Of a DNA stretch of 32,000 bases, positions 15,067 to 32,000 are shown one piece after another; within the stretch, counting starts at the first letter, position 1; every line of letters starts with the position of its first letter. Both the position numbers and the translations under genes were made by a program. Under the pieces are notes generated by a model that had not been told where the DNA came from, ran no database searches, and was given only the letters and a program-made list of their open reading frames with translations. The DNA is from Pyrodictium delaneyi (GTDB taxonomy: Archaea; Thermoproteota; Thermoprotei_A; Sulfolobales; Pyrodictiaceae): contig NZ_CP013011.1 of assembly GCF_001412615.1 (NCBI RefSeq), positions 1,170,001 through 1,202,000 on the forward strand, read 5' to 3'.

Positions 15067-15097
15067 ACTCTACCCCTAGTAATCTAGGTGTAGAACT

Positions 15098-15589: not shown

Positions 15590-15594
15590 CGACA

Positions 15595-16101
15595 ATGACA
15601 TCTACTGTCATAGGAATAGCCCTAGGCTTGCTCATACTAGTACTGTCTGTTGTATGGTTTGCCAGTATATGGAACAACTATGTAATGACTTTTGCAGCTG
15701 GACTCCGTGAATTATCCGAGTATGTCAGCTATAGATCTAAGGCGTCATTTAAGGTAGTCAATGCAAGTCTCATTTCGGGTACAACGATAGAGGCGTATGT
15801 TGAAAACAATGGCGGCGTTGATGTAATAATAGACAATAGCTCAATAGTCATTGCTGTTTACATTAATGCTAGCGTTGAGAGGCGTGACATCGGGGTATAC
15901 GGGAAAGACTGGATAGTAGATCAAGTAGTAGTCGGCACATTGTCTCGCTCTATCGCGCCAGGCGAACCATTCTCACTAGAACCTGGAGCATTAATGCACC
16001 TAGTCTTCAATATAACTCGTATACCCGATGCTAACACCTCTATTCGTTTCATAATCAGTGATGGGAAGGGGGTGGTTGCTACTTATGTCTTCCAAAGCTA
16101 G
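15595..16101 (+). CDS. arlF: archaellum stator-like protein ArlF (FlaF)
   Basis: N-terminal TM helix (VIGIALGLLILVLSVVWFASI) plus a beta-sandwich-like domain (IEAYVENNGGVDVIIDNSSIVIAVYIN). It is a paralogous architecture to ArlG. The alternative start GTG 15586 overlaps the arlG stop (GTGA). ATG 15595 has GGGTGA upstream. Confidence 0.7.
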   Translation: MTSTVIGIALGLLILVLSVVWFASIWNNYVMTFAAGLRELSEYVSYRSKASFKVVNASLISGTTIEAYVENNGGVDVIIDNSSIVIAVYINASVERRDIGVYGKDWIVDQVVVGTLSRSIAPGEPFSLEPGALMHLVFNITRIPDANTSIRFIISDGKGVVATYVFQS

Positions 16102-16813: not shown

Positions 16814-16855
16814 GCTATAGATGATTCTTAGTGTATTTAGACATGTACTGTAGAG

Positions 16856-18628: not shown

Positions 18629-18657
18629 ATGCTTAATAGGCCTGGAGGTCTCGGGAT

Positions 18658-20310
18658 TTGTCGATCACAGCAACGGAGGTAAAGATTGAGCGAAGTAAAC
18701 TACTAGACCCAATATTCCTTGCAAGCCTAGCTGTCCCCGTAGCAGCAATAGCTCTAATTAGTAGCCCAGTAGCATATACAGCCATTGTCGTACCAGCACT
18801 GGCTGGTGTATGGCGAATATTACTACCCATAGCTAGGCGACAAGCCCGTACAAACCAGATGGATATGGATCTACTGTTCCTCCTTGCCCACATGTATGCG
18901 GTATCCACGGGAAGACCAGCCCGTCGCCGTCTCTTTGAGCTAAACACACTTGTAGGCGAATATGGTGACTATCAGCGCGTACTACGTAGGATAGCCGTGT
19001 TAGCTGTCGAGTGGGGCTACGGATTTGTCCGCGCAACACGCATGCTAGCTAATCAAGTTAGGAATGATGCCTTCCGCGGCTTCCTCATACGTATGAGCGA
19101 GGTTCTCCGTACGGGTGATGACGTAGTAAGATTTCTTAGGGTGGAGCTCGAGACAGCTATGCGCCAATTTACGAGTAGCTATATGCGTGCAATAGATCTC
19201 ATGCGTATATTTCTTGGACTCTACACGACGCTTATGAGTGCTTCAGCATTTGTTATACTGACTTTTACAATACTAGCAGTGTTCATGGGCGGCGACTCAT
19301 CAGTATTCGTAGTATCTATTATGGCACTCACTGTAACTATTGCAGTATTCGCTTTTATCGCTAAGATGATATCGCCCCGTGACCCAATAATTTATAGGTC
19401 AAAGGAAGTCTTGAATCCAATGCTAGCACGGCTTGCTAGGATAACAAGACTGGCCTTTACCGCATCAGTAGTATTGGGGCTTCTTACATACACTATTACA
19501 CGTGACCCCATGTACACAATACTAGCTTTCGCATTACCCGCTCTCGTCCCTGGCATAGTTGCAATGCGTATAGAAGGATTCATAAAACGTATAAACATGT
19601 TCTATCAAGTCTTTGTCCGCAGTTTCGGGCTCACGTTCTCGGTTATGCCTAACTATGCTAGTGCCCTTGCATCTGTCCTGTCCGCAGATTATGGCGTTCT
19701 AACACCTTATTTACGTCGGCTCCATGCCAGGATAACTAATGGTATTGACCCCCACATAGCTTTTCGCTATTTCGTATTGGAGACAATGAGTACAAATGTC
19801 CTACGTGGAACAAACATTATGGTCGACTCAATAGATGCTGGTGGCGATGCTACTGAGACGGGGCTTATGTTAAGTAGCCTCCTCATTAGGCTGGGAGATC
19901 TACGCATAGATAGAGACCGTGTAGCACGCACCTTTGAAGCAGTTGTATACCTTATGCAGGGTCTTGTGGCAGCAATATCTTCTGCAGTTGTAAATATACT
20001 AATCTTGTTTATGGGGTATTATAAACAACTCATAGGAATGTCGCAGACAATGCCTGAAGTCGTACAATATCTCCCATTCGCTATAACTATACCAAACATG
20101 ACGCTCGTATCATGGGCTATAGCTATATTCCTTGCCGCATTGATATTCATTAACGCGATCATGATAGCATATGTGCGTAGCAGCATATTCGAGATAGCAT
20201 TATTCCACATAGCTGTACTAGCAATAGTAACTGTCGCAGGAGTAAAGGCAATGGAGGTAATATCCCGTATGTTGATAATGCCCGTGTTAATACCTGGGCC
20301 AACGAGCTGA
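18658..20310 (+). CDS. arlJ: ArlJ (FlaJ) polytopic archaellum platform protein
   Basis: 550 aa with many TM helices and two T2SS-F-like repeats. It follows arlI directly. The TTG start at 18658 is supported by GGAGGT 8 nt upstream, and the first ATG would remove about 67 aa. Confidence 0.85.
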   Translation: MSITATEVKIERSKLLDPIFLASLAVPVAAIALISSPVAYTAIVVPALAGVWRILLPIARRQARTNQMDMDLLFLLAHMYAVSTGRPARRRLFELNTLVGEYGDYQRVLRRIAVLAVEWGYGFVRATRMLANQVRNDAFRGFLIRMSEVLRTGDDVVRFLRVELETAMRQFTSSYMRAIDLMRIFLGLYTTLMSASAFVILTFTILAVFMGGDSSVFVVSIMALTVTIAVFAFIAKMISPRDPIIYRSKEVLNPMLARLARITRLAFTASVVLGLLTYTITRDPMYTILAFALPALVPGIVAMRIEGFIKRINMFYQVFVRSFGLTFSVMPNYASALASVLSADYGVLTPYLRRLHARITNGIDPHIAFRYFVLETMSTNVLRGTNIMVDSIDAGGDATETGLMLSSLLIRLGDLRIDRDRVARTFEAVVYLMQGLVAAISSAVVNILILFMGYYKQLIGMSQTMPEVVQYLPFAITIPNMTLVSWAIAIFLAALIFINAIMIAYVRSSIFEIALFHIAVLAIVTVAGVKAMEVISRMLIMPVLIPGPTS

Positions 20311-20382: not shown

Positions 20383-22758
20383 GTGTTGAGGAGGACAATA
20401 GCGGCGCTGCTTGCGGGAATTCTCGCATTAATTAGTATTGCTGCACTCTCGGCAAATGCCCAAGATGCGCAAGAAACTTATACTGTTGAGCTACGGTTGG
20501 GAGACGATCTATATGTATTATATATCAATATGTCTACTGGCTATTTCGTAGAAACGTCGAGTACACTTTACATGAAGATGAATATTAGACTTGCGTATTC
20601 AACTAGCGCTGAACCTGTATTTGTGTCAGTAGAGGCAAGTCTTGCAGGCGTAGCTATAGGTTCGTCCATGGCAGGGTATCTATCTGATCAAACACCGACT
20701 CGCGAAATAGTTATCAGTGGAATTGTACCGCCGCATGTTGCGGAGCAGATAACATATCATAGCGGTCTAAGCTTCATAGAGGTCAAAGTAAAAGCCTATC
20801 GTGGCAACGAAAAAGCCGTACAAACCATAATGGTGCCCGTAGTAGTAGTAAAGAAGGAACCTAGCATATCGGTGGACGCATTCTTTGACAATGGGAGCCC
20901 CTATACAGTAGCTGTAATAGGTCGTGACATGTTTAGAAAAATCGTTGTTCGTGTGGCAAATACTGGAGAAATACAGGCACGTAATCTTAAGGTATCAATT
21001 CTATTGGGTAATAATACAGTCTACACTGGTACAGTAGCCACGATCCTAGAGCCAGGTGAGCAAGCAGAGACGGAGGCTACGATACCTGTCCCAGTACAGC
21101 CAGGTGTCTACACACTAACAGTCAGTGCGAGAGCGATAGTGGGTGCTGTAAGCTACGAGAAATCAACAAGCCTCATAATGGCTGTTATACCTAGACCCGT
21201 TATCCAGTTAGTACTTGTCAACTCTACACCCGTACTCGAAGGCGAGAAAGTATGTTTCACGATATATGTTAATGGTGTACCCGAGTTTGCTGATCCAAAC
21301 ATAGTGCTAGAATACTCTGCTCCTGGCGCCGGTCAAGATCAATGGAATCCGGTCTATGTTAAAAAAGGTAGAGAGAATGTATCATACTGTTGGGAGGCAC
21401 GTACAGCAGGAGATAGAACCACAGCTTACCTGTTCCGCGCAAAACTACTGCTTCGAATCTACGGGCTCGAGTACGCATCTTATAGCAATACCGTGCAGGT
21501 AACAGTAACACCTATTACATCTGTTCTGTCGCGGAGTAGCCTTCAGCTAGTAGTTGTGCCATCAATGATCTACGAGGGTGGGGAAGCTCGTGCCGTAGTG
21601 ACGTTATCGCCTACACTACCTGGATGTCTTACCGGGAGGCTAGAGGCTCTAGATACACAGACACTAACATGGACGCCGCTCAAGCAAATCAACATATGTG
21701 ATGGGAAAGGTATCGTAAATATATTCGCGTCGGAACTAGGTGTAGGTAATCACACACTTCGCGCCGTTGTCCAGTTGGGCAGCTACACTATAGCGAGTAA
21801 CGCAGCAAGTATTAGGATAGTTGCCAAGCCGGAGCTTGTAGCTAGACTTGTGCCGCCTATAGCTGCACCAGGCTCGTCCACTGAACTATTAGTAAAGGTG
21901 GATCCAGCTATTAGGGAATATAGGGTCTCCATAAAGCCCTCTTGGATGGATAACTGGATTAATACTACTGGGAAGCCCGGTGGTGTGACAGTACCCCTAT
22001 TAGCCCCTGACAAGGAAGGCGTCTATGACGTAAGAATAGAGGTAGCAATCAACGGTGTAAAGTTAGAAAAGACGCTTGTGCTAACAGTCCAGAAGCTCCT
22101 CTTGTTAGTAGCAGCTGAGCCGCAGAAGCTGCGCGCAGGCGAGGTAGACACGATAAATGTAAAGGCAACATTATCGGCGCCTCTGAATGGTACGGCAGTA
22201 TTCACGCTGTCTAGAGGCAATACAGTAATCGATAGTACGGAGAAGCTCATGGTTGACGGGAAAGCGGTAGCTAAGCTCACTGCTCCCAAAGAACCCGGCG
22301 TCTATACTATCAAGGTGTTCGTACCCGAGTACAGGATCGAGAACACTACATTAGTTAATGTGACTAAAATGATGTATGGTATAACGCTTACACTAAACGC
22401 CACGAAGACGGAGCCTAACGGCAAAATAGAGACAAGGATCGAAATACAGCCAAAGCCGACGAGCCCGGTAAACCTAGTACTGATGATCCAGTATCCGGAT
22501 GGTGTGTGGAGAACACTAGTCTCTAAGCTTGTAAGCAGCAACGAGGCAACTATAGTCATTGATGCGCCGAGCGAGCCCGGAACATACCGTGTTAAAGCTA
22601 CTATTCCATCAGTAAATGCTGAGAGCAACGTGGTAACTTTAGAGGTCACTGGTAGAGCTGTGAAAGAAATCGTTCCAGCTAACATGCTTCCAACGGTGAT
22701 AGCGGGGGCTGCTACAATAGCCATTCTGTGGAGCATAAGAGCTATACGCAAGCGCTAG
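20383..22758 (+). CDS. large secreted, C-terminally membrane-anchored surface protein with CARDB/Ig-like repeats
   Basis: Signal peptide MLRRTIAALLAGILALISIAALSANA|QDAQ. The C-terminal TM plus basic tail is LPTVIAGAATIAILWSIRAIRKR. Repeated beta modules of the CARDB kind are present (e.g. VANTGEIQARNLKVSILLGNNTVYTGTVATILEPGEQAETEATIPVPVQPGVYTLTV, and later EPGVYTIKV, EPGTYRVKA, KEGVYDVRI). There are many N-x-S/T sequons. It lies 72 nt downstream of arlJ on the same strand. Confidence 0.7.
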   Translation: MLRRTIAALLAGILALISIAALSANAQDAQETYTVELRLGDDLYVLYINMSTGYFVETSSTLYMKMNIRLAYSTSAEPVFVSVEASLAGVAIGSSMAGYLSDQTPTREIVISGIVPPHVAEQITYHSGLSFIEVKVKAYRGNEKAVQTIMVPVVVVKKEPSISVDAFFDNGSPYTVAVIGRDMFRKIVVRVANTGEIQARNLKVSILLGNNTVYTGTVATILEPGEQAETEATIPVPVQPGVYTLTVSARAIVGAVSYEKSTSLIMAVIPRPVIQLVLVNSTPVLEGEKVCFTIYVNGVPEFADPNIVLEYSAPGAGQDQWNPVYVKKGRENVSYCWEARTAGDRTTAYLFRAKLLLRIYGLEYASYSNTVQVTVTPITSVLSRSSLQLVVVPSMIYEGGEARAVVTLSPTLPGCLTGRLEALDTQTLTWTPLKQINICDGKGIVNIFASELGVGNHTLRAVVQLGSYTIASNAASIRIVAKPELVARLVPPIAAPGSSTELLVKVDPAIREYRVSIKPSWMDNWINTTGKPGGVTVPLLAPDKEGVYDVRIEVAINGVKLEKTLVLTVQKLLLLVAAEPQKLRAGEVDTINVKATLSAPLNGTAVFTLSRGNTVIDSTEKLMVDGKAVAKLTAPKEPGVYTIKVFVPEYRIENTTLVNVTKMMYGITLTLNATKTEPNGKIETRIEIQPKPTSPVNLVLMIQYPDGVWRTLVSKLVSSNEATIVIDAPSEPGTYRVKATIPSVNAESNVVTLEVTGRAVKEIVPANMLPTVIAGAATIAILWSIRAIRKR

Positions 22759-22796: not shown

Positions 22797-23279
22797 ATGG
22801 AGATACTTTTAACCATATTTGTTCTGGCAATTCTACTACTCTTTGTGCTTGTAGTAGCAATCATAATCAGTGTAAACCGTAGTAGACGTAGTAGAAAGAA
22901 CGAGAGCGGGCATAGGGCCTATAGTGGTGAAGAAGGAGCTCCATCATTCGGGTTTGGCGGTGCCGTTGCTACTGCCGGGGAAACAGGAGGCTGGACCTCT
23001 GAGTCTTCAACCAGTGAAACTGGGAGAGAGGCTAGTGAAACAGTGACATCAAGGCTCTTGCTCGTTCTTGACAAGTATCGTGCAATGCCTATAGAGGAGC
23101 TAGAGCTGCGCGTGGGTGCTAGCCGTGAAGAGATAGTGAAGGCATTGCATGAACTAGAGAGGAAGGGGTTTGTCCGTGTGGAGGGTGGAATGCTTATATT
23201 CAGTGAACGTGGCGAAAAATTGATTACAAAGCTTCGCGAGAAATACTTCGATAAACGTCGCTGGCTCGAGAGCATCTAG
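22797..23279 (+). CDS. membrane-tethered winged-helix protein (N-terminal TM, disordered linker, C-terminal wHTH)
   Basis: TM helix ILLTIFVLAILLLFVLVVAIIISV, then the basic stop-transfer RSRRSRK, then a Gly/Ser/Thr/Glu-rich linker, then the wHTH PIEELELRVGASREEIVKALHELERKGFVRVEGGMLIFSERGEKL. Confidence 0.6.
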   Translation: MEILLTIFVLAILLLFVLVVAIIISVNRSRRSRKNESGHRAYSGEEGAPSFGFGGAVATAGETGGWTSESSTSETGREASETVTSRLLLVLDKYRAMPIEELELRVGASREEIVKALHELERKGFVRVEGGMLIFSERGEKLITKLREKYFDKRRWLESI

Positions 23280-23345: not shown

Positions 23346-23780
23346 GTGTTCATCGGCTCGTGTGCCACATCTTCGGAGGACGATAATAGGTCAGTACGCA
23401 TCGTTAATGCCCCTAGAGGGGTATGGAGGATGCTCATTGGGCGAAAGAACCCGCTGGGGGTGATGGACGACCCCGTCAAAGGATTACTTCTTGAAGCACT
23501 TTCAACTCTTGATTATAATTATATAATCAAGGGAATAGATGTAGAACGCGGCGAAAATGAACTAAGAGTATCAGTTGTCATGAAGCCGCGACGTGACGAT
23601 GCAACAATATCTACATGGCGTATAATAGAGATGGAAGAACGTATAACTTCAGTACTCGGTCTCGAACCCGATCTCTCTCATAGCCGAGTTGGTGTCACAC
23701 CGGAGGGCTTCCTACTGGTTGTATACGTGTTTCGTATCAGGGGTATACGGCCAGTTGACTACGAGAATGCCGGAATTTAG
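23346..23780 (+). CDS. hypothetical protein
   Basis: ORF only, with no recognisable motif. The listed start is GTG. In-frame ATGs at 23430 and 23463 are alternatives. It converges on the next gene with a 4-nt overlap. Confidence 0.35.
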   Translation: MFIGSCATSSEDDNRSVRIVNAPRGVWRMLIGRKNPLGVMDDPVKGLLLEALSTLDYNYIIKGIDVERGENELRVSVVMKPRRDDATISTWRIIEMEERITSVLGLEPDLSHSRVGVTPEGFLLVVYVFRIRGIRPVDYENAGI

Positions 23781-24487
23781 CCATACGATTTTAGCTGTTG
23801 TATGATTTCCGAAATCCGTGTAGCTAATTGTTCCCCTTCGTCAGACACACCTGTGTAGTTTTCTATGAGAAGCCTACATTGTTGTGGCAAATTTTCCGAA
23901 ATGGCTTCATAATACTTACGCGACGTATAAGGTGTTACAACTATATGAGGTAAACCAGTATCAATACAACTTGTGACAGTATAACTAGCCTCCATCACAC
24001 GAGTAGTAGGCGATAACGATGAATGAATGTCAATGCATGCTATTGGTCTCTTATCAATCGTAACTATTATGTCATGGAAGTATTTTGCACCGCTTTGTCC
24101 ATGTATATAAGCTAGAGAGAGAATTTTGAATCCATCATTTTCGAGTTTAGTTGCTATCTGCTGTCGTAGCTCTTTGCAATGCCGGCAGCCGGCTTCAATA
24201 CCCTCTCTTTCTAATCCTCTTTCTATAAAGCGTAGAAGCACTAGTACATGGATACCGCGTGGTGTTATAACATAACTACGATGTCCGTTGTGTTTTCTTA
24301 CCTCTATGAGACCTAAACGTACAAGTTCTTCCTCAACATAGTTTTGGAAACTTCGAGGATTTAAGTTGGCTAGATTCATAAGCCTTGTCTTACGTAGTGG
24401 TCCGCGATGTTCCAGTATAGCTAGTACGTCGGAGATTATGAGGAGGGAATCGCGGCGCTTTATGTTTGGCCTAGAGTCTATCCCCAT
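23777..24487 (-). CDS. winged-helix DNA-binding protein (archaeal HTH_45-like N-terminal domain) with an uncharacterised C-terminal domain
   Basis: From ATG 24487: MGIDSRPNIKRRDSLLIISDVLAILEHRGPLRKTRLMNLANLNPRSFQNYVEEELVRLGLIEVRKHNGHRSYVITPRGIHVL matches the small archaeal wHTH family pattern (RR..L.II.DIL......KT.IM..ANL.......Y...L...GLI......Y.LT..G). A C-terminal domain of about 140 aa of unknown fold follows. The ORF-track start at 24622 adds 45 unlikely residues. Confidence 0.6.
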   Translation of the reverse strand: MGIDSRPNIKRRDSLLIISDVLAILEHRGPLRKTRLMNLANLNPRSFQNYVEEELVRLGLIEVRKHNGHRSYVITPRGIHVLVLLRFIERGLEREGIEAGCRHCKELRQQIATKLENDGFKILSLAYIHGQSGAKYFHDIIVTIDKRPIACIDIHSSLSPTTRVMEASYTVTSCIDTGLPHIVVTPYTSRKYYEAISENLPQQCRLLIENYTGVSDEGEQLATRISEIIQQLKSYG

Positions 24488-24598
24488 GGTGTCCCAGCCT
24501 ATGATACGTTGTGGGACGCCATCTCTACCATAGACTATCAAAACATGGTAAGAGACGACGACCCACACCTGGTAATACTGTTGTTTTAGTGTATATTT

Positions 24599-24614
24599 CT
24601 GTAGTGTACTACAG
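24599..24614. promoter_or_regulatory. inverted repeat (candidate operator) upstream of the wHTH gene
   Basis: CTGTAGT gt ACTACAG has 7-bp perfect arms. It sits in the AT-rich promoter region with TTTTAAAG and TTATATAC boxes on the coding (minus) strand, about 110-125 nt upstream of ATG 24487. Confidence 0.3.
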
Positions 24615-24650
24615 ATACGCAATGTATATAAGTCGCTTTAAAATATATGA

Positions 24651-25631
24651 TTACTCTGAATGTTTATACAGCGAACATATAGCGTATCCCTCCAATAACA
24701 CGCACAATCTATTGGTAGTAGCTTCGTATATTAGTGGTCTTCCAAGCCTCTCTGCTACAGTAATCACGTATCTAGGATCACTATTCATGACAACTGGGAG
24801 TGATAATGGGAGCTCACCCTTCCTTGCGAATGGCTCAGCTGTAGCCTTTAGCAAGGATTCTATTTGTTCTTCCCTTATCTCGGATTTGGCGTAAAACAGT
24901 GAAGAGGTGATAGCCATTATAATACCGGTACCAAAGAGATACATAAACAATTGCCTGTTATTTTCATTGCTATCATTTGTGTATAATTTTACTTCATAGA
25001 CCTTTGAGCCCTTAGTTTCACTAAGCTTAATATAATATATATTGTCTCTAGGTAAATATTCTAAGGTAACGGAAGCAGGAGCATAAATAGTTTCATTCAT
25101 AACGTGAACTTTGAAGGTATATTCCACTATCACCTTATAGCCTGTACCGGTAGGTATACCTGCCTCTCTCATAGCTTTCGAGACTAGTTCGTCTATGCTC
25201 TGTATATTTATCGTCGTATTGAGCTTCTCCCCTATTTCCATGTATCCTGTTGAGGAATCTAGACTTATCATAAACGGTCCTATTTCAACACGTTTGTTCT
25301 GCTGATACTCTATACGTTGTGGTAGCATTATGCTTGTATTGGTTGTAGTGATAGATAAAATTGCTGATACATTGAAGCTGTCCAGTAGTCTAGCAGGAAT
25401 AGCTGAATCGTTGCGTATAATGACTTCACCGGTTGGATATAAGATAGACTTGTGTACCTTGGCATCTATCTCTATAAATGCACCATAGTCTAGAGTTATG
25501 TTTGTTGATTGAGATTGTGGAGACGCCTTAACTAGAGCTAGACTAGCTCCAGAGAAACCTGCCAAAGCTAATCCAAGACTCATTAAAAGAAGGAGAATAA
25601 ACCCTTTGCGGCTATTTTTGCTCTTATTCAT
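24651..25631 (-). CDS. bitopic membrane glycoprotein-like protein, candidate fibre anchor/assembly partner
   Basis: Signal peptide MNKSKNSRKGFILLLLMSLGLALAGFSGASLALVKA. An extracellular beta-rich domain of about 190 aa carries 7 N-x-S/T sequons. It has a single TM (LFMYLFGTGIIMAITSSLFYA) and a cytoplasmic tail of about 78 aa. It lies directly downstream of the signal-peptidase gene on the same strand. Confidence 0.55.
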   Translation of the reverse strand: MNKSKNSRKGFILLLLMSLGLALAGFSGASLALVKASPQSQSTNITLDYGAFIEIDAKVHKSILYPTGEVIIRNDSAIPARLLDSFNVSAILSITTTNTSIMLPQRIEYQQNKRVEIGPFMISLDSSTGYMEIGEKLNTTINIQSIDELVSKAMREAGIPTGTGYKVIVEYTFKVHVMNETIYAPASVTLEYLPRDNIYYIKLSETKGSKVYEVKLYTNDSNENNRQLFMYLFGTGIIMAITSSLFYAKSEIREEQIESLLKATAEPFARKGELPLSLPVVMNSDPRYVITVAERLGRPLIYEATTNRLCVLLEGYAICSLYKHSE

Positions 25632-25668
25632 TACACGTATACACCACTCCGTGATGATACACTATGGT

Positions 25669-25737
25669 GAGAGGTTAGGCCATGGCTCTTGCCCTCTTGC
25701 TTGATAGAAAAGGGCGTAGAGCCAGCCTCGACCTCTC
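25669..25737. other. GC-rich nested hairpin (69 nt) in the AT-rich spacer between the peptidase and membrane-protein genes
   Basis: GAGAGGT t AGGC cat GGCTCT t GCCCT [cttgcttgatagaaa] AGGGC gt AGAGCC a GCCT cg ACCTCTC. Four stacked helices (7+4+6+5 bp) pair perfectly by hand. The local G+C is far above the surrounding spacer. GTGATGA at 25651-25657 lies just upstream on the plus strand. Confidence 0.5.
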
Positions 25738-25806
25738 CCGCTACTATTTACGGGTATCTATCTCTGTAAAATGTTTTGGAGATTGTAAATGGACCTAATC
25801 TCTAGT

Positions 25807-27027
25807 CTACTTGACCTTCTTTTTAACTAGCTGTGGGATAGAGGGCCTAATGAGCATTAGAGACACGAGCATGGCTATGAACAATTGAGCGCTTTGAATA
25901 CTCCCTCCCAGAAGTCGAGCCAAGTGTAGAAGCGGTAGACCAGCATAGGGGATCCTCACTATTTTCACACCTAACACACTAGAGGTTTCTACCGGCGCAT
26001 CCGGTGCACGATTATTGTCACCCTTTGTTGTAATCATTACTTTGCCGTTTTCGTCAATTGATTTGTTTATGACACGGTGTAGCACTATAGCGTCGCCAAG
26101 CCTATAGGCTATTATATCACCTGTCCTGACGTGATCTGTGGGTTTTACTATCACTATATCGCCAGGGTTTAGTGTAGGCTTCATGCTCCCTGTGAGTACC
26201 ATGAGGGGCCAGTAGCCCATCCATAGAGCTATGAGTAGGAACATTGCTAGCAATGATATTGTTGCTATCCAGTAGGGGTTACCATTATCTTTTGAGGCCC
26301 TCTTTTCGCGGTGGAGAACAATGCCTTGACCAAGAATAGTGATTACAAGTATTGCTGGTAGAAGGATGGCCATATTATAGATTGGTGCGGCTACGGCAGG
26401 TAGTATGGGTAGAAGCTTAGCGGGCGCATCTATTGCTATAGCATATACCATGGCATGGTTTCCAGAAGCGTATCTGGCGAGCATGTATATAGCTATGGCC
26501 GTAAAGGCTACTGGTAGCAACCCCATAGCTGTTGCCAGGGGGGCTCGAGTACCGGACAACATTAGCTCAATTTCGGACATAGTGAACTTCGTAGAAAGCA
26601 TAGATATAATATATCCGATGTGGGCCAGCCACGAAAGGAATCGCTGGTTTTTCCAGTAGACTGCCAGTGAGGCAACCGCAGCTCTACCGGCAGCTAGGGG
26701 TAACAGGAATATAGTGTTAAATACTGCAAAGTCTATTGATGGTGCTAACGGGTTAATGGCAAATCCGCCTATTAGACCTAGCCCTGAAAGCAATGCAATC
26801 CAGAATGTTAATGCTAAGATGGTCGACAATGAACCCTCTCTAGAGTAACCATAACTTCTTGAAAGACCTCCAGAGATTAATGCGGCTACAATAGCAACTA
26901 TTGATGCTAGAGCTGGTAAAACATAACTGTATATACCCCGATATACTTGTAGCATCAGAAATACAAACACAGCTGCATACGACGATATCACCAAATAAGC
27001 TAATAGTCTTCGCGACGCGCTACCCAA
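25807..27027 (-). CDS. type I signal peptidase (archaeal/ER, SipW-like S26 catalytic domain) fused to an N-terminal polytopic membrane domain
   Basis: The C-terminal 150 aa carry the S26 boxes LTGSMKPTLNPGDIVIV (Ser nucleophile), IIAYR...IVLHRV (His of the Ser/His-type enzymes) and TKGDNN, followed by a last TM (AQLFIAMLVSLMLI). The N-terminal 250 aa are about 7-8 hydrophobic helices with no motif I recognise. The start is uncertain (TTG 27027, with in-frame TTG/GTG shortly after; the first ATG is at codon 25). Confidence 0.75.
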   Translation of the reverse strand: MGSASRRLLAYLVISSYAAVFVFLMLQVYRGIYSYVLPALASIVAIVAALISGGLSRSYGYSREGSLSTILALTFWIALLSGLGLIGGFAINPLAPSIDFAVFNTIFLLPLAAGRAAVASLAVYWKNQRFLSWLAHIGYIISMLSTKFTMSEIELMLSGTRAPLATAMGLLPVAFTAIAIYMLARYASGNHAMVYAIAIDAPAKLLPILPAVAAPIYNMAILLPAILVITILGQGIVLHREKRASKDNGNPYWIATISLLAMFLLIALWMGYWPLMVLTGSMKPTLNPGDIVIVKPTDHVRTGDIIAYRLGDAIVLHRVINKSIDENGKVMITTKGDNNRAPDAPVETSSVLGVKIVRIPYAGLPLLHLARLLGGSIQSAQLFIAMLVSLMLIRPSIPQLVKKKVK

Positions 27028-27205
27028 CTCTACTTGCCCCTGAATTACTGGTTTATTTATTGTATCATAGATTCATTGATTATTCAATATAAGATATAAA
27101 TGAGATTATAATAAACGAAGATAAATTAAAAAGGGTTAGCCAATGATCGAGGTTTGCACCACTAACGACTTTGAATTATTTAACAATCTTTCCTACATTA
27201 AGCAC

Positions 27206-27871
27206 TTATGGTACGTTATATTCGTTCCAGGCTATGGCGTCAAACTCAATAGTTATTGTTAGGGTTTCACCTTGAGGAGCTTCCTGTAATACAGTTATGT
27301 CAAGGCTGATGTCTGCAGAGTTGCATGGATGTAACTGTTTGCCAAAATTGTCGCCCCACCATATAAGTACGTCGTTTTGCCCGTCTCCGGTAACGTCTAT
27401 TTCTACACCTTGCTGTAGTTCATGTTCATTAATTTCAAAGTAATACGTGCCGTCGAGGAGTATACGCCATATCTTGAGCGGTATTGTTCCGTCGTTATGG
27501 ACCTTGAACGCCACGTGTGTGTAGTACCATGGGTAAACATTGTGCAGCGTTATCTGCATGGCATCGTAGTCTCCATCACCATCGGTGTCAAGTAGTTCTA
27601 CCTCTGTGCAGCCCGTATCTTTATCGAGTTGAAGGGCTCCAGGTGACGGTAGATAGGACGCGTTCCAATCGTATCCTCCTGTATAGCCATATCCTGGAGG
27701 TAGTCCGCACCCATCAAGGTAGATTATTCCGTCCATTATTTCCCAATCGAGCTCGCCGGTAGCTACTTCGGCATTCACTTTTAGCGTTTCACTCCAGAGA
27801 GCATAGGCGCTTGCTATAGACATTGCTATAATAGCTATGAGTGATGGTATGAATAGTTTGCTCCCATACAT
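27206..27871 (-). CDS. secreted TasA/camelysin-like fibre subunit candidate (larger paralogue) with SipW-type signal peptide
   Basis: MYGSKLFIPSLIAIIAMSIASAYA|LWSETLKVNAEVATGELDW ... NVYPWYYTHVAFKVHNDGTIPLKI ... QLHPCNSADISLDITVLQEA ... ITIEFDAIAWNEYNVP. The post-signal motif, the Q/LHP segment and the terminal F.A..WN resemble B. subtilis TasA (AAFND..TFASGTLDL, LKPGD, FEATQWNG) as I remember it. It is a paralogue of 28022-28573. Confidence 0.65.
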   Translation of the reverse strand: MYGSKLFIPSLIAIIAMSIASAYALWSETLKVNAEVATGELDWEIMDGIIYLDGCGLPPGYGYTGGYDWNASYLPSPGALQLDKDTGCTEVELLDTDGDGDYDAMQITLHNVYPWYYTHVAFKVHNDGTIPLKIWRILLDGTYYFEINEHELQQGVEIDVTGDGQNDVLIWWGDNFGKQLHPCNSADISLDITVLQEAPQGETLTITIEFDAIAWNEYNVP

Positions 27872-28021
27872 GTGTGTTCAACTCACGCATATCCAAGACT
27901 TGATCTGGTTTGTTGATGGAGCTGGAGGGTGTGTACCCAGCCACCCCCACATAGATATGATTCTAAAAATTATGTGGCTATATGATGCTTCCAGGCAGAA
28001 CGTCTTCTGTCCTCTTAATGA

Positions 28022-28573
28022 TTACGGTACTTCGTTCCACTGAGCGAATACTAGTGTTACTTCGAATGTGTAACTGCCATTCTCCGCAGCGTCCTGGAGT
28101 ACAGCTATGTCTAGTGTGTATGTGTGGGTGTCACCTGGATGTAGCTGAGTATCCTGCGGCGTTAGCAGACCTACAGCTAGAGCTGTCGTGTTGACGCCAT
28201 CTATACTGCTACTGTAAAGCTTGACTGGTATAGTGCCTATGTTGGATATATTCATGTATACTTGCACATTGTACCCTGGATAGGCATTGTCCACTGTGAC
28301 TAGTAGCTTTATTACGTCGCCTTCTTCGTCTAGAATCTCTACATCAACGTTGCAGGAGGCTACGTCTTTACCTTCTTCGTTATGGAATTGAGAGTTGGGA
28401 ATTTGTGGGTCCGGGCCAGTATCGCTGCACATCCAGTCTGTAAATGCTACATCGACTTCTCCGGTATTGACCTCAGCATTTATCATCAGAGTTTCACTCC
28501 ACATTGCAAAGGCGCCAGCTACGGATGCTAACACGATGCCTAGAAGGGCTATGCTGTATATGGGATTTCTCAT
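28022..28573 (-). CDS. secreted TasA/camelysin-like fibre subunit candidate (smaller paralogue) with SipW-type signal peptide
   Basis: From ATG 28573: MRNPIYSIALLGIVLASVAGAFA|MWSETLMINAEVNTGEVDV ... NAYPGYNVQVYMNISNIGTIPVKL ... QLHPGDTHTYTLDIAVLQDA ... VTLVFAQWNEVP. It shares all landmark blocks with 27206-27871. The ORF track extends it to TTG 28600. Confidence 0.65.
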   Translation of the reverse strand: MRNPIYSIALLGIVLASVAGAFAMWSETLMINAEVNTGEVDVAFTDWMCSDTGPDPQIPNSQFHNEEGKDVASCNVDVEILDEEGDVIKLLVTVDNAYPGYNVQVYMNISNIGTIPVKLYSSSIDGVNTTALAVGLLTPQDTQLHPGDTHTYTLDIAVLQDAAENGSYTFEVTLVFAQWNEVP

Positions 28574-28767
28574 ACTTGGTTCAACTCGCACTTTGGTCAA
28601 GTAGTAATAGTCATGAATAAGACATAAAAACGTTGATTATACTTAGAATCTATTAAGGATAGGTATTACAAATACTTTGTAGAAAGATACAGTACTGATA
28701 AGGACTAACAGTAAATATAGTAAGGAACTAGCTACAAAATATACTACTGGTATGCTTTACTCGTAAA

Positions 28768-29607
28768 TTACTCGTAGAGAATCTCAGTCTCTATACTTGT
28801 ACGCAGAATTTTAGAGAGAGTTTTGGCTATATTGTATACGAATGATTCGCAATATTCGATAAAACTAGTACAAACGACTATAAGGTTATAGGAATCATCT
28901 TTACGATCGAGATCAATGCTTGCAATACCATGTGAGACGTCAAGTATATCAAATACTTTTAAAACTATATCTTCTACGAATTCGGTGTTTTGGCTGGTTA
29001 GTGTACTACGAAATCTATCAACAATCTTGAAGACTAGGCTATGAGCTATCCACATGGCACCGAGATTACTGTTTTTCAATGCCTCGGCAAGTTGTCCACC
29101 CAACCTCAGCGCTTCACCAGCTGCCTCGTTGCCATAGAGATTCCGGAGAGTCAACTCATCTAACACTAGAGCTGCTTCGAAGCTTCGGAGGACCCCTAGC
29201 TGTCCTACAGCTTCTATGGCTCCACGCCTTATTGATCTAACTACCTCTACGGCCCGTCTTGCAGAGAAACCGTAACGATAAACAAGGTATCCGGCAGCTA
29301 GCGTTGCACTGCGCCCCTTTCCGCCAAAACAATGTATTAGAACTCTCTTGCCCTCCTTAGCAGCACTTAGTGTTATCTTAGCAGCACGATAAAGCTGCCA
29401 GAGACTCGGCCATGCGAAATCCGGTATAGGGATGTGGATGTACTCGACACGGCTTTGTAACAGCGAAGGATCATAGGCTAGCTCGTGGGTTTCAACAGCA
29501 GCTATAACTACATCAAATTCTTTAGTAATGTAAGGCAGTACGGCTCTATCAAGCATCGGAGAGAACGCCACGTATTCATCGACTGGAAACACGTCAAAGA
29601 CTACCAA
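28768..29607 (-). CDS. protein-tyrosine/dual-specificity phosphatase with a C-terminal extension of about 120 aa
   Basis: The P-loop HCFGGKGRSATLAAGYL (HCxxGxxRS/T) sits in an N-terminal domain of about 155 aa. The listed start is TTG 29607, so the start is uncertain. The 3' third of the gene (about 28768-29100) is much more AT-rich than the phosphatase part. Confidence 0.75.
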   Translation of the reverse strand: MVVFDVFPVDEYVAFSPMLDRAVLPYITKEFDVVIAAVETHELAYDPSLLQSRVEYIHIPIPDFAWPSLWQLYRAAKITLSAAKEGKRVLIHCFGGKGRSATLAAGYLVYRYGFSARRAVEVVRSIRRGAIEAVGQLGVLRSFEAALVLDELTLRNLYGNEAAGEALRLGGQLAEALKNSNLGAMWIAHSLVFKIVDRFRSTLTSQNTEFVEDIVLKVFDILDVSHGIASIDLDRKDDSYNLIVVCTSFIEYCESFVYNIAKTLSKILRTSIETEILYE

Positions 29608-30358: not shown

Positions 30359-30547
30359 ATGGCGTGTGAGAAGGCTGTGAAGGTTCGTGACCCGACTACT
30401 GGTAAGGAGGTTGAGCTAGTACCCATCAAGGTGTGGCAGCTAGCCCCCAGGGGCAGGAAGGGCGTAAAGATAGGCCTATTCAAGAGCCCAGAAACCGGCA
30501 AGTACTTCCGCGCCAAGGTACCAGACGACTACCCAATATGCAGCTAA
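30359..30547 (+). CDS. cren7: chromatin protein Cren7
   Basis: [62 protein letters not shown]. It is near-collinear with the Cren7 sequence I know (..[42 protein letters not shown]). GGAGGTG lies 8 nt upstream of the ATG. Confidence 0.93.
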
Positions 30548-31270: not shown

Positions 31271-31407
31271 GGGCCCGTAGCTCAGCCAGGCAGAGCGCCG
31301 GGCTCCAGACCCCGGTTGCCGGTCCACAAAGGCGCTGGGTCTGTCGAGCCCCTGGATGAGAGGGAGAGACCCGGCGGTCGGGGGTTCAAATCCCCCCGGG
31401 CCCACCA
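31271..31407 (+). tRNA. tRNA-Trp (anticodon CCA) with a 60-nt intron at the canonical 37/38 position, CCA encoded
   Basis: Exon 1 (31271-31308): GGGCCCG TA GCTC AGCCAGGCA GAGC G CCGGG CTCCAG. Intron: 31309-31368. Exon 2 (31369-31407): A CCCGG CGGTC GGGGG TTCAAAT CCCCC CGGGCCC A CCA. CTCC (31303-31306) can pair with GGAG (31363-31366), leaving AGA bulges on both sides at the splice sites, which is bulge-helix-bulge-like. The exact junction could shift by 1-2 nt because of the repeated AGAC. Confidence 0.85.
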
Positions 31408-31590
31408 TGCATCTACTCGCCGCTTCCACCGTCCTCCCCATGTCCACGGCTTGCATTAGTTAGAATGCTTGTTATGCTAGCGTGCCACCCTCTTTCTCTG
31501 CGTCTTGCCCTCGGAGCCTCCCTGGCAGGGGTTACTGTCTTTAGCCCTGGGTAGAGGTAGCCGGCCCACGTAGGAGGTGTAGGAAGGGCG

Positions 31591-32000
31591 ATGGCGAGCA
31601 GGGTGAGGGACCCAGCTCTAGCGGATAGGGGCGCACTCCAGATAGAATGGGCAGAAATGCATATGCCTGTTGTAGCCAAGTTCATCCGCGAGAGGTTCAC
31701 CCGCGAGAAACCACTCCAGGGCGTCCGGATAGGTGCTGTCCTCCACGTAACCAAGGAGACGGCGGCGCTCGTTCGCACACTAGCAGCTGGCGGCGCTGAG
31801 GTCCGGCTAGCTGCAAGCAATCCGCTGAGTACTCAGGACGATGTGGCAGCGGCTCTTGCCCGTGAGGAGGGCATAGAGGTCTGTGCCTGGCGCGGGATGA
31901 ATGAGGAGGAGTACTTCTCCTGTATACGCTGGGTAACAGAGTGGAGACCCAACATAGTCATAGACGACGGTGGCGACCTCCACGCCATGCTTCACCGCGA
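31591..32000 (+). CDS. ahcY: S-adenosyl-L-homocysteine hydrolase (5' part; continues beyond the window)
   Basis: Not in the ORF track because it is open at the window end. ATG 31591 is preceded by GGAGGTG. My translation MASRVRDPALADRGALQIEWAEMHMPVVAKFIRERFTREKPLQGVRIGAVLHVTKETAALVRTLAAGGAEVRLAASNPLSTQDDVAAALAREEGIEVCAWRG... contains the conserved LHVTKETA and SNPLSTQDDVAAAL blocks of AhcY. Confidence 0.88.
   Translation, partial: MASRVRDPALADRGALQIEWAEMHMPVVAKFIRERFTREKPLQGVRIGAVLHVTKETAALVRTLAAGGAEVRLAASNPLSTQDDVAAALAREEGIEVCAWRGMNEEEYFSCIRWVTEWRPNIVIDDGGDLHAMLHR

What the first reader, a model, noticed from the sequence alone, without database searches (positions are those of the whole stretch)
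24651..28600. Crenarchaeal TasA-superfamily fibre locus: two secreted subunits, a dedicated SipW-type peptidase and a membrane partner
Two paralogues (27206-27871 and 28022-28573) share these blocks:
- a signal peptide followed by A-[LM]-WSETL-x-[VI]-NAEV-x-TGE-[LV]-D;
- N-x-YP-x-Y ... N-x-GTIP-[LV]-K;
- QLHP, L-D-I-x-VLQ-[ED]-A, and a terminal F-x-A-x(1,2)-WNE-x(0,2)-VP.

By eye these line up with TasA landmarks: AAFND..TFASGTLDL right after the SipW cut, LKPGD, and FEATQWNG.

Directly downstream on the same strand are an S26 peptidase of the Ser/His (SipW/ER) type and a glycosylation-rich bitopic membrane protein. The bacterial counterpart is tapA-sipW-tasA. In archaea, TasA-like donor-strand-exchange fibres are known from Pyrobaculum bundling pili (AbpA) and Pyrodictium cannulae (CanA).

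This locus differs by pairing two strongly diverged subunits with a fused peptidase. It is the best candidate in the window for a poorly described extracellular filament system.
Basis: partly seen in the sequence, partly recalled or inferred. Interest (0 to 1): 0.8.

Follow-up and report, generated by a model that had tools for sequence, protein, structure and literature searches.

The report
AbpX biofilm-fibre locus of Pyrodictium delaneyi

Summary
Two secreted paralogues (31% identity, E 2e-23) are followed on the minus strand by a long S26 peptidase and a membrane protein. The window is Pyrodictium delaneyi.

Subunit A is WP_055409108.1 (A0A0N7JD56). PMC12518558 (Nat Commun 2025) already names that accession as a putative AbpX-like protein. 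A and B match the solved P. abyssi AbpX donor-strand fibre (9sj2/9rhp; A-family profile E 3e-15). They are orthologues (58% and 64% identity) of the Zestosphaera "major AbpX pilin" and "AbpX-like minor subunit" in the 2026 AbpX preprint.

That preprint also describes the ten-helix signal peptidase I and the DUF5305 accessory protein. In related Thermoproteota loci:
- B follows A in 52/57.
- The long peptidase follows in 34/39.
- An HTH_45 regulator is linked in 23/31.

The peptidase has the Ser/His/Asp motifs of SEC11.

My own direct tests for TasA homology (Pfam PF12389, hhalign, Foldseek) were negative or inconclusive. The TasA-superfamily placement therefore rests on AbpX homology plus the literature.

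Verdict: correct interpretation, already known, low novelty. No fibre has been demonstrated in P. delaneyi itself.

The parts
28022..28573 (-). abpX-like major fibre subunit (A; Pyrde_1209, WP_055409108.1, UniProt A0A0N7JD56), 183 aa precursor. Mature protein 160 aa, pI 4.05, 15.6% Asp+Glu.
   Evidence: 100% identical to P0001 and its accessions. phmmer against AbpX 9sj2_C gives E 8e-7; the A-family profile gives E 3e-15. 58% identical to Zestosphaera A0A2R7Y7S4, called the 'major AbpX pilin' in the preprint. AF2 model has pLDDT 90.4 and is a beta-sandwich. Composition.
28505..28573 (-). Signal peptide of A (residues 1-23), ending A-F-A before the predicted cut A|MWSE.
   Evidence: Hydrophobic segment 3-27 and helix 5-22 in the AF2 model. 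A23 and M24 are nearly invariant and W25 is invariant in 61 homologues. The cleavage itself is inferred, not shown.
28448..28504 (-). Predicted N-terminal donor strand of A (mature residues 1-19, MWSETLMINAEVNTGEVDV).
   Evidence: Aligns residue for residue with the AbpX donor strand W2-I12. W2 is present in 60/60 homologues, an acidic residue at position 4 in 55/60, and hydrophobic residues at 6, 8 and 12. Has no secondary structure in the monomer model, as the preprint reports for AbpX.
27206..27871 (-). abpX-like minor subunit (B; Pyrde_1208, WP_055409106.1), 221 aa precursor. Mature protein 197 aa, pI 4.05, 17.3% Asp+Glu. Carries a DTDGDGDYD acidic loop.
   Evidence: BLASTP against A gives E 2e-23. 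phmmer against AbpX gives E 1e-4. 64% identical to Zestosphaera A0A2R7Y7T0, called the 'AbpX-like minor fibril subunit'. AF2 model has pLDDT 88.5. Keeps the AbpX Ca ligands E4, D18, D46, D48 and E52 as E4, D18, D73, D75 and D79.
27743..27799 (-). Predicted donor strand of B (mature residues 1-19, LWSETLKVNAEVATGELDW), after a 24-residue signal peptide (27800-27871) ending A-Y-A.
   Evidence: Motif check. W2 is present in 64/64 B-type homologues and D18 in 61/64.
26293..27027 (-). N-terminal polytopic membrane domain (about residues 1-245, roughly 8 helices) of the dedicated signal peptidase I (WP_143522069.1).
   Evidence: Kyte-Doolittle peaks at residues 8, 36, 70, 106, 164, 193 and 221, plus 254 and 377 in the catalytic part. 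A profile of 41 archaeal N-domains, built without close relatives, hits residues about 5-231 at E 5e-14. No Pfam or NCBIfam family covers it. The preprint describes AbpX-linked SPase I as having ten TM helices.
25807..26292 (-). S26 catalytic domain of the signal peptidase, Ser/His/Asp (SEC11/archaeal) type, followed by a C-terminal membrane helix.
   Evidence: TIGR02228 scores 84.9 bits against a cut-off of 51.85. PF00717 and PF10502 are above their thresholds. Aligns to human SEC11A/C at E 2e-9, with GSM (Ser281), HRV (His317) and GDNN (Asp337) matching SGSMEP, VHRV and KGDNN.
24651..25631 (-). Divergent DUF5305-family membrane protein (WP_055409102.1). Layout: TM1, an extracellular region of about 190 aa with 7 of the protein's 8 N-glycosylation sequons, TM2, and a cytoplasmic tail of about 75 aa. 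Presumed accessory of the peptidase.
   Evidence: PF17231 scores only 18.4 bits against a cut-off of 29. However, 7 of 10 genes in the same position after the peptidase in other loci pass PF17231 at 46-123 bits. A profile of 53 such genes, built without the close relatives, matches the window protein over residues 1-316 at 54 bits, E 3e-18. Topology. The role is taken from the preprint and the Tafi paper (TafG).
23777..24622 (-). HTH_45 winged-helix protein, probably the locus regulator. The true start is probably the ATG at 24490 (237 aa).
   Evidence: PF14947 scores 44.8 bits against a cut-off of 25.5. A homologue lies next to the abpX genes in Pyrofollis and Zestosphaera and in 23 of 31 Thermoproteota loci with enough flank. 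The preprint notes 'occasional transcription factors'. The start position is inferred from homologue lengths of 200-240 aa.

Best explanation
This is the abpX-type extracellular fibre locus of Pyrodictium delaneyi.

**Proposed mechanism**
1. A (major subunit) and B (minor subunit) are exported by the Sec system.
2. Their signal peptides are removed after A-x-A by the dedicated membrane peptidase. This is an archaeal/SEC11-type S26 domain fused to a polytopic N-terminal membrane domain. It probably works together with the DUF5305 protein encoded next to it.
3. Cleavage frees the amphipathic N-terminal strand X-W-S-E-T-L-x-[VI]-N-x-x-V.
4. That strand inserts into the open groove of the incomplete beta-sandwich of the next subunit (donor-strand complementation). 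This gives thin, very acidic fibrils without a chaperone.
5. In AbpX, calcium ions bound at the strand-groove interface stabilise the fibril, and cations let fibrils associate into a lattice or biofilm matrix.
6. The linked HTH_45 protein probably regulates the locus.

**Shown here**
- Homology to AbpX.
- Conservation of the donor strand.
- Acidic composition of both mature proteins.
- The catalytic motifs of the peptidase.
- The conserved gene order.

**Inferred from the homologue and the literature**
- Cleavage of the signal peptides.
- Polymerisation.
- Calcium dependence.
- The accessory role of DUF5305.
- Regulation by the HTH_45 protein.
For: **Homology to the solved AbpX fibre**
- A against 9sj2: E 8e-7. 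B against 9sj2: E 1e-4.
- The A-family profile against 9sj2 gives E 3e-15 over profile positions 26-171, matching chain residues 2-148.
- 9rhp is a self-complemented construct that carries WSETLSLSATISTG at its C-terminus.

**Orthology and prior naming**
- A and B are orthologues of the Zestosphaera major and minor AbpX subunits named in the preprint.
- Subunit A is named AbpX-like in PMC12518558.

**Family features**
- Donor strand: W2 is invariant, and position 4 is acidic in 55/60 A-type and 45/64 B-type homologues.
- pI is 4.05 for both mature proteins, with 15.6% and 17.3% Asp+Glu. AbpX has pI about 4.0 and 14.6%.
- Calcium ligands are conserved 4 of 6 in A and 5 of 6 in B.
- AF2 models are confident beta-sandwiches with an unstructured N-terminal strand.

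**Peptidase**
- TIGR02228 is above its cut-off, and the Ser/His/Asp motifs align to SEC11A/C.

**Synteny in Thermoproteota loci**
- A is followed by B in 52/57.
- The long SPase follows in 34/39.
- DUF5305 sits after the SPase.
- An HTH_45 gene is linked in 23/31.
Against: - No experimental data exist for P. delaneyi. No fibre has been seen, no N-terminus mapped and no expression shown.
- Foldseek against the PDB gave only weak, generic beta-sandwich hits (no E < 1e-3). DSC pilins and the TasA fibre appeared only at E of about 0.01-0.07. The AbpX entries did not appear and seem to be absent from that library.
- One AbpX calcium ligand (E52) is Ile/Val in all A-type proteins. E142 is not conserved.
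- The AbpX cysteine pair (99/138) is not at the positions of A's Cys26/Cys51.
- Identity to AbpX is low, so details such as lattice formation and calcium stoichiometry may differ.
- The window's DUF5305 protein misses Pfam's own threshold.
Confidence: 0.85

Rival explanations
1. A and B do not co-polymerise. They form two separate homopolymeric fibres, or one fibre plus one non-fibre surface protein, and merely share one processing peptidase. 'Minor subunit' would then be a misnomer.
For: - Both proteins have a full donor strand and a full sandwich domain, so each could self-polymerise.
- B-type proteins are more conserved than A-type (60-75% against 55-68% identity to the window proteins).
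- B-type proteins keep more AbpX calcium ligands.
- P. abyssi manages with a single AbpX.
Against: - The A-B pair is adjacent in 52/57 loci.
- The two donor strands are nearly identical, which fits cross-complementation.
- The preprint reports AF3 co-assembly of the Zestosphaera orthologues. That is a prediction only.
Confidence: 0.2
2. The two proteins are secreted or surface-attached beta-sandwich proteins, such as adhesins or S-layer-associated proteins, that do not polymerise. The resemblance to AbpX would then reflect only a shared fold and a shared signal-peptide type.
For: - Foldseek returns only generic Ig-like or beta-sandwich matches.
- The Pfam hits are weak matches to CARDB and Ig-like domains.
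- No fibre has been reported for P. delaneyi.
Against: - The similarity to AbpX is significant at the sequence level and covers the donor strand as well as the sandwich.
- The donor-strand residues that matter in AbpX (W2, E4, L6, hydrophobic 8 and 12) are the most conserved part of both families.
- The monomer models leave that strand unstructured.
Confidence: 0.06
3. They are camelysin-like (Peptidase_M73) secreted metalloproteases, or 'ribosomally synthesised peptides with a SipW-like signal peptide', as some automatic annotations of homologues say.
For: - Weak hits to PF12389 Peptidase_M73 (E 0.17) and TIGR04088 cognate_SipW (E 0.097).
- One JGI homologue carries the 'ribosomally synthesized peptide' name.
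Against: - Those hits cover only the signal peptide and the first strand, and are below threshold. Only 2 of 61 family members hit PF12389 at E <= 1.
- No HExxH or other metalloprotease motif is visible in either sequence.
- The proteins are folded domains of 160-197 aa, not peptides.
Confidence: 0.02

Closest known systems
Pyrodictium abyssi AbpX (WP_338249486.1; PDB 9sj2 fibre, 9rhp self-complemented monomer) with its downstream SPase I
   Same: - Homologous subunit (profile E 3e-15).
- The same X-W-S-E-T-L donor strand.
- pI of about 4 and about 15% acidic residues.
- A dedicated TIGR02228 signal peptidase directly downstream.
- Same genus.
   Different: - Only about 30% identity despite the shared genus.
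- The P. abyssi locus is 'minimal' (abpX plus SPase). P. delaneyi also has the minor subunit B, DUF5305 and an HTH_45 gene.
- The E52 calcium ligand is Ile in A, and the cysteine pair sits elsewhere.
- The AbpX signal sequence is 54 residues, against 23-24 here.
Zestosphaera tikiterensis NZ3 abpX locus (A0A2R7Y7S4 major, A0A2R7Y7T0 minor, A0A2R7Y9R0 tip; example locus of the 2026 preprint)
   Same: - Orthologous A (58%) and B (64%).
- Same order: A, B, long SPase, gene after the SPase, with an HTH_45 gene next to it.
   Different: - Zestosphaera has a third, 316-327 aa AbpX-like 'tip' gene between B and the SPase. The window has none.
- Such an extra gene is present in only 8/39 loci.
- Genes overlap or abut in Zestosphaera, whereas the window has gaps of 150-180 nt between genes.
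Bacillus subtilis tapA-sipW-tasA (TasA fibre, PDB 8aur)
   Same: - A secreted matrix-fibre subunit encoded with a dedicated ER/archaeal-type signal peptidase.
- Assembly by N-terminal donor-strand exchange (PMC9674648).
- The literature places AbpX in the TasA superfamily.
   Different: - Not a member of Pfam PF12389 (12 bits against 22.5).
- hhalign against TasA aligns only the signal peptide and first strand.
- There is no TapA homologue.
- The peptidase has about 10 TM helices instead of SipW's few, and scores 60 bits against the 190-bit cut-off of the SipW equivalog.
- A DUF5305 partner is present.
Haloarchaeal Tafi pili (TafE pilin, TafD signal peptidase, TafG DUF5305, TafB regulator; PMC12337348)
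   Same: The same accessory set: a dedicated signal peptidase, a DUF5305 protein proposed to assist it, a transcription regulator, and strand-donation pilins.
   Different: - A different pilin family. No sequence match to A or B was seen in PDB searches.
- Tafi pilins are often Tat-dependent.
- Tafi loci carry tip (TafC) and anchor (TafF) proteins that are absent here.
Pyrobaculum calidifontis AbpA bundling pili and Pyrodictium CanA/CanX cannulae
   Same: Archaeal extracellular filaments assembled by donor-strand complementation. The literature classes them in the TasA superfamily.
   Different: - No detectable sequence similarity to A or B in the PDB sequence searches, even at E <= 10.
- Cannula genes lack a dedicated peptidase, and P. 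delaneyi has no cannula genes.

Membership tests
AbpX family (TasA-superfamily clade defined on P. abyssi AbpX) | Significant sequence similarity to AbpX over the donor strand and the sandwich domain | tested here: met
   A against 9sj2_C gives E 8e-7; B gives E 1e-4. The A-family profile gives E 3e-15 over chain residues 2-148 of 163.
AbpX family (TasA-superfamily clade defined on P. abyssi AbpX) | [quoted passage not shown] | tested here: met
   A reads M-W-S-E-T-L-M-I-N-A-E-V and B reads L-W-S-E-T-L-K-V-N-A-E-V. W2 is present in 60/60 and 64/64 homologues. Position 4 is acidic in 55/60 and 45/64. The feature is defined in the preprint.
AbpX family (TasA-superfamily clade defined on P. abyssi AbpX) | Very acidic mature protein (pI about 4.0, about 15% Asp/Glu) | tested here: met
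   A has pI 4.05 and 15.6% D+E. B has pI 4.05 and 17.3% D+E.
AbpX family (TasA-superfamily clade defined on P. abyssi AbpX) | Acidic calcium ligands at the strand-groove interface (AbpX E4, D18, D46, D48, E52, E142) | tested here: inconclusive
   The window's A keeps 4 of 6, with E52 replaced by Ile65. B keeps 5 of 6. E142 is not conserved, and the alignment is unreliable there. The AbpX fragment used was rebuilt from HMMER output.
AbpX family (TasA-superfamily clade defined on P. abyssi AbpX) | Incomplete jelly-roll / beta-sandwich fold completed in trans | tested here: inconclusive
   The AF2 monomers are confident beta-sandwiches (pLDDT 90.4 and 88.5) with an unstructured N-terminal strand. 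Foldseek against the PDB gave no hit below E 1e-3. The AbpX entries did not appear in that library. No multimer prediction was available.
AbpX family (TasA-superfamily clade defined on P. abyssi AbpX) | Chaperone-free, Ca2+-promoted polymerisation into fibrils of about 2.5 nm | not testable with these tools
   Needs a recombinant protein assay or cryoEM of P. delaneyi culture fractions.
Archaeal abpX locus (as laid out in the 2026 preprint) | Dedicated SPase I with about ten TM helices encoded next to abpX | tested here: met
   A 406-aa protein two genes downstream scores above the TIGR02228 cut-off. It has 9 clear hydropathy peaks plus a weaker one near residues 130-147. Its N-domain is homologous to those of 41 other archaeal loci at E 5e-14. 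A long SPase is present in 34/39 archaeal and 11/12 other loci. The helix count rests on hydropathy only.
Archaeal abpX locus (as laid out in the 2026 preprint) | AbpX-like minor subunit next to the major one | tested here: met
   B is 64% identical to A0A2R7Y7T0. B follows A in 52/57 loci.
Archaeal abpX locus (as laid out in the 2026 preprint) | Predicted tip protein | tested here: not met
   No third AbpX-like ORF exists in the window; the A and B profiles hit only the two genes. The extra gene of >=300 aa is present in only 8/39 loci, so it is optional.
DUF5305 (Pfam PF17231) | Score above Pfam's gathering threshold | tested here: not met
   The window protein scores 18.4 bits against 29.
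DUF5305 (Pfam PF17231) | Homology to bona fide DUF5305 proteins, with the same position and topology (TM, extracellular domain, TM, cytoplasmic domain) | tested here: met
   7 of 10 positional orthologues pass PF17231 at 46-123 bits. A profile of 53 positional orthologues, built without close relatives, hits the window protein full-length at 54 bits (filters off; the default-filter run listed nothing). The protein has two TM segments.
ER/archaeal-type signal peptidase I (S26B; SEC11, SipW type) | Ser-His(-Asp) catalytic residues instead of Ser-Lys | tested here: met
   Aligns to SEC11A/C at E 2e-9. GSM Ser281, HRV His317 and GDNN Asp337 sit opposite SGSMEP, VHRV and KGDNN. The identity of the SEC11 catalytic residues comes from my own knowledge of the SEC11A structure paper.
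Bacillus SipW equivalog (NF046067) | Score above the equivalog cut-off | tested here: not met
   60 bits against 190. It is related to SipW but is not SipW itself.
TasA / camelysin family (Pfam PF12389 Peptidase_M73) | Score above Pfam's gathering threshold | tested here: not met
   A scores 12.1 bits against 22.5, and B has no hit. Only 2 of 61 A-type homologues hit at E <= 1. Hits in relatives cover only the signal peptide and first strand.
TasA superfamily (remote homology) | Profile or structural similarity to TasA beyond the signal peptide | tested here: inconclusive
   hhalign of the A-family alignment against TasA gave 50 columns, probability 4%. The TasA sequence was checked as identical to 8aur. 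Foldseek placed 8aur_A at E 0.025 for A and 0.065 for B. The superfamily placement rests on the published HHsearch and CLANS analyses.

The most novel reading that the evidence does not exclude
The two-subunit system may work differently from single-subunit P. abyssi AbpX. B is better conserved and retains the calcium site, so it could be an obligatory nucleator or adaptor in the manner of TapA. The 8-helix N-domain of the peptidase, together with DUF5305, could form a membrane platform that couples signal-peptide cleavage to fibre initiation or anchoring, rather than being only a protease with a helper. Nothing in my data excludes this reading, and nothing specifically supports it beyond conservation patterns.
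Probability: 0.15. Interest if true: 0.5.

Novelty: already known. Interest (0 to 1): 0.22.

Why it matters
The finding matters little as a discovery. AbpX fibres, their donor-strand and calcium mechanism, the ten-helix signal peptidase, the DUF5305 partner and the minor subunit are described in PMC12518558 (2025) and in bioRxiv 10.64898/2026.01.04.697558 (2026). Subunit A of this window is named in the first of these.

It is useful in three ways:
- It is a clean positive control. A reader working from raw sequence reached the right family, the right cleavage site and the right peptidase type.
- P. delaneyi is a cultivated close relative of P. abyssi. It has the complete five-gene locus that P. 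abyssi lacks, and it has no cannulae.
- That makes it a good organism for asking what the minor subunit, DUF5305 and the peptidase N-domain contribute.

Tried and rejected
1. **Foldseek of both AF2 models against the PDB.** Only weak generic beta-sandwich hits came back. The AbpX entries did not appear, so this could neither confirm nor refute the fold assignment.

2. **hhalign of the A-family alignment against B. subtilis TasA.** Only the signal peptide and first strand aligned, at 4% probability. The alignment is shallow (Neff 2.6) and TasA was a single sequence, so the test is weak.

3. **Pfam scan of all 61 A-type homologues.** There was no consistent family. PF12389 was hit in 2 of 61.

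4. **Word-indexed homologue search for the DUF5305-like protein.** It found only the protein itself. The full HMMER scan of 1.84 billion representatives found only 3 relatives. Homology had to be shown through positional orthologues instead. One of the 56 positional genes (L050) is an unrelated ABC ATPase and slightly contaminates that profile. The default-filter hmmsearch listed nothing. With filters off it gave 54 bits.

5. **Profile of 12 bacterial/Archaeoglobus SPase N-domains.** It did not hit the window peptidase. Cross-domain homology of the N-domain is supported only by one pairwise hit (Syntrophomonas L072, E 1e-4).

6. **Are the flanking genes part of the locus?** I tested the DSP phosphatase (28768-29607), the 791-aa surface protein, the TM-wHTH protein, ORF 23346-23780 and the archaellum genes. 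None is found next to abpX in 81 other loci, so all were rejected as parts.

7. **The preprint's supplement held as text.** It does not mention P. delaneyi.

8. **The sigma-70 promoter / intrinsic terminator scanner.** Not used, because it does not apply to archaea.

Full report
**1. The observation**

The four minus-strand ORFs are present as described:
- A: 28022-28573, 183 aa.
- B: 27206-27871, 221 aa.
- A 406-aa protein: 25807-27027.
- A 326-aa protein: 24651-25631.

A and B are clear paralogues (31% identity, E 2e-23). The one exception is the C-terminal pattern, which fits B exactly and A only in relaxed form (FAQWNEVP).

Both proteins start with a hydrophobic signal peptide that ends in A-x-A. 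It is followed by M/L-W-S-E-T-L.

**2. Identity of the window and the proteins**

Subunit A is 100% identical to Pyrde_1209 of Pyrodictium delaneyi (WP_055409108.1, UniProt A0A0N7JD56). The other three are:
- B: Pyrde_1208.
- The peptidase: WP_143522069.1.
- The membrane protein: WP_055409102.1.

A plain sequence search of the PDB with A hits two entries:
- 'AbpX' (9sj2), E 8e-7.
- 'Archaeal bundling protein X' (9rhp), E 2e-5.

B hits the same two more weakly. A profile of 61 A-type homologues hits 9sj2 at E 3e-15 over nearly the whole chain. 9rhp carries the strand WSETLSLSATISTG grafted onto its C-terminus, so it is a self-complemented donor-strand construct.

**3. What the literature already says**

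PMC12518558 (Nat Commun 2025) named AbpX after seeing its fibrils in P. abyssi cultures. It placed AbpX in the TasA superfamily by HHsearch. [quoted passage not shown] That accession is subunit A.

The preprint 10.64898/2026.01.04.697558 (January 2026) adds the following:
- It solved the fibre: donor-strand complementation by W2-I12, and three Ca2+ ions bound by E4, D18, D46, D48, E52 and E142.
- It describes typical archaeal abpX loci. These contain AbpX, an AbpX-like minor subunit, sometimes a tip protein, an SPase I with ten TM helices, a DUF5305 accessory protein and occasional transcription factors.

Its example is Zestosphaera tikiterensis. The 'major pilin' A0A2R7Y7S4 is my hit P0063 (58% identical to A). 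The 'minor subunit' A0A2R7Y7T0 is P0181 (64% identical to B). The window therefore holds an orthologue of a published locus type. P. delaneyi is not mentioned in the preprint's main text or in the held supplement.

**4. Independent checks of the family features**

- **Donor strand.** W2 is invariant in both clades. Position 4 is acidic in 55/60 A-type and 45/64 B-type proteins. Positions 6, 8 and 12 are hydrophobic.
- **Composition.** Mature A has pI 4.05 and 15.6% D+E. Mature B has pI 4.05 and 17.3% D+E.
- **Calcium ligands.** I aligned both clades to the AbpX fragment recovered. A keeps E4, D18, D46 and D48 (as E4, D18, D59 and E61) but has Ile at the E52 position, as do all A-type proteins. 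B keeps five of the six, inside a nearly invariant D-x-D-G-D-G-D-Y-D loop. E142 is not conserved. The AbpX cysteine pair is not at the positions of A's two cysteines.
- **Predicted structure.** AF2 gives confident beta-sandwich monomers (pLDDT 90.4 and 88.5). The N-terminal strand is left without secondary structure. The preprint reports the same for AbpX monomers.

**5. The peptidase**

The C-terminal 160 residues are an archaeal/ER-type S26 domain:
- TIGR02228 scores 84.9 bits against a cut-off of 51.85.
- The domain aligns to human SEC11A/C at E 2e-9.
- GSM (Ser281), HRV (His317) and GDNN (Asp337) lie opposite the SEC11 motifs.

The N-terminal ~245 residues form a polytopic membrane domain with no Pfam or NCBIfam family. 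Hydropathy gives nine clear helices for the whole protein, with a possible tenth. A profile of 41 archaeal N-domains, excluding close relatives, hits it at E 5e-14. The fusion is therefore a conserved family trait. It also supports the 406-aa start over the 340-aa GenBank annotation.

**6. The membrane partner**

This protein evolves fast:
- The indexed search found only the protein itself.
- The exhaustive search found three relatives.
- It misses Pfam's DUF5305 threshold, scoring 18.4 bits against 29.

In other loci, however, the gene directly after the peptidase passes DUF5305 in 7 of 10 tested cases. A profile of 53 such genes, built without the three close relatives, matches the window protein end to end at 54 bits.

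The protein has two membrane segments, and 7 of its 8 N-glycosylation sequons lie between them. In Tafi loci the DUF5305 protein TafG is proposed to assist the peptidase TafD.

**7. Synteny**

I fetched 81 loci with the A-family alignment and analysed them with my own ORF calls and phmmer.

| Feature | Thermoproteota loci | Bacterial, Archaeoglobus and other loci |
|---|---|---|
| B directly follows A | 52/57 | 2/18 |
| ~400-aa peptidase within 4 kb downstream | 34/39 | 11/12 |
| Extra AbpX-like gene of >=300 aa ('tip') | 8/39 (absent in the window) | 0/12 |
| HTH_45 gene linked | 23/31 | 0/10 |

In the window, and in its three closest relatives (Pyrofollis and two Pyrodictiaceae MAGs), the HTH_45 gene follows DUF5305 on the same strand. 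The conserved unit therefore runs from 23777 to 28573.

The flanking phosphatase, the 791-aa surface protein, the TM-wHTH protein and the archaellum genes are not linked to abpX elsewhere.

**8. TasA**

My direct tests do not show TasA homology:
- PF12389 is far below threshold, and only 2 of 61 homologues hit it at all.
- hhalign against TasA aligns only the signal peptide and first strand, at 4% probability. The TasA sequence was verified as identical to 8aur.
- Foldseek places the TasA fibre, the Sulfolobus 0406 thread and the Fim/Cfa pilins among many generic sandwiches, at E of about 0.01-0.07.

I therefore file the proteins as AbpX-family members. I treat 'TasA superfamily' as a published classification that I could not reproduce with these tools.

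**9. Mechanism and verdict**

The most likely mechanism is the one in section 3, transferred by homology:
1. Sec export.
2. Cleavage after A-x-A by the dedicated peptidase, probably together with DUF5305.
3. Release of the W-S-E-T-L strand.
4. Chaperone-free donor-strand polymerisation of A, with B incorporated or nucleating.
5. Cation-dependent stabilisation and bundling into a matrix.

Steps 1 to 5 are inferred for P. delaneyi, and none has been observed there.

Interest is low. The residual value is that P. delaneyi offers a cultivated host with the complete locus.

Noticed in passing
window 13100-20310 (+): An archaellum operon lies about 3.5 kb from the abpX locus:
- An Arch_flagellin-domain protein at 15098-15589.
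- ArlH/FlaH at 16058-16813.
- ArlI/FlaI at 16856-18628 (649 bits against a cut-off of 550).
- ArlJ/FlaJ at 18658-20310.

The window therefore holds two surface-filament systems. The adjacency is not seen in 81 other abpX loci, so it is probably coincidental.
   Followed up: partly
window 20383-22758 (+): A 791-aa protein with a signal peptide, a CARDB/Ig-like domain (PF07705, 27.6 bits) and a C-terminal membrane anchor with a basic tail. It sits between the archaellum operon and the abpX locus. It is not related to A or B and is not found near abpX elsewhere.
   Followed up: partly
window 22797-23279 (+): A 160-aa protein with an N-terminal membrane helix, a Gly/Ser/Thr/Glu-rich linker and a C-terminal winged-helix region. 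The matches to TrmB, MarR and Lrs14 families are weak and sub-threshold. It may be a membrane-tethered regulator. It is not conserved near abpX.
   Followed up: no
window 27206-27871 versus 28022-28573, and alignments A1/A2: The 'minor' B-type subunit is better conserved across Desulfurococcales than the 'major' A-type: 60-75% against 55-68% identity to the window proteins. B-type also keeps a nearly invariant D-x-D-G-D-G-D-Y-D loop that matches AbpX calcium ligands D46, D48 and E52. All A-type proteins have Ile or Val at the E52 position.
   Followed up: partly
window 25807-27027 and 24651-25631: Public annotations disagree on the start codons. The peptidase is given as 340, 395 or 406 aa, and the DUF5305 protein as 304 or 326 aa. 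Profile alignments that reach residue ~5 of the peptidase and residue 1 of the DUF5305 protein support the long forms. The short forms would cut off membrane helices.
   Followed up: yes
window 27028-27205, 27872-28021 and 25632-25806: The locus genes are separated by gaps of 150-180 nt in P. delaneyi. There are T-tracts after A (aatttttag) and after B (ccctttttaatttat), followed by AT-rich stretches. In most other lineages the genes abut or overlap; for example the SPase and DUF5305 genes overlap by 10-20 nt. This may indicate separate transcription units. It was not tested.
   Followed up: no
window 31271-31404 (+): A 134-nt tRNA match found by Rfam (52.4 bits) but missed by ARAGORN. It is probably an intron-containing archaeal tRNA.
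   Followed up: partly
window 31400-32000: The last 600 bases are about 62% G+C, against 40-50% elsewhere in the window. No Rfam family matches there at E <= 0.01. The cause is unknown. It may be the edge of a structured RNA gene or an rRNA leader beyond the window.
   Followed up: partly
window 30359-30547 (+) and 28768-29607 (-): A Cren7 chromatin protein gene (PF11520, 118 bits). A dual-specificity phosphatase gene lies directly upstream of subunit A (PF00782, 54 bits). The phosphatase is not conserved near abpX.
   Followed up: partly
loci L018, L021, L024, L027, L043 (about 463-469 aa) and L001/L028 (327 aa): The optional third AbpX-like gene between B and the peptidase comes in at least two size classes. 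It still matches the A subunit (E 1e-11 to 1e-23). It has no Pfam family (for the L028 protein).
   Followed up: no
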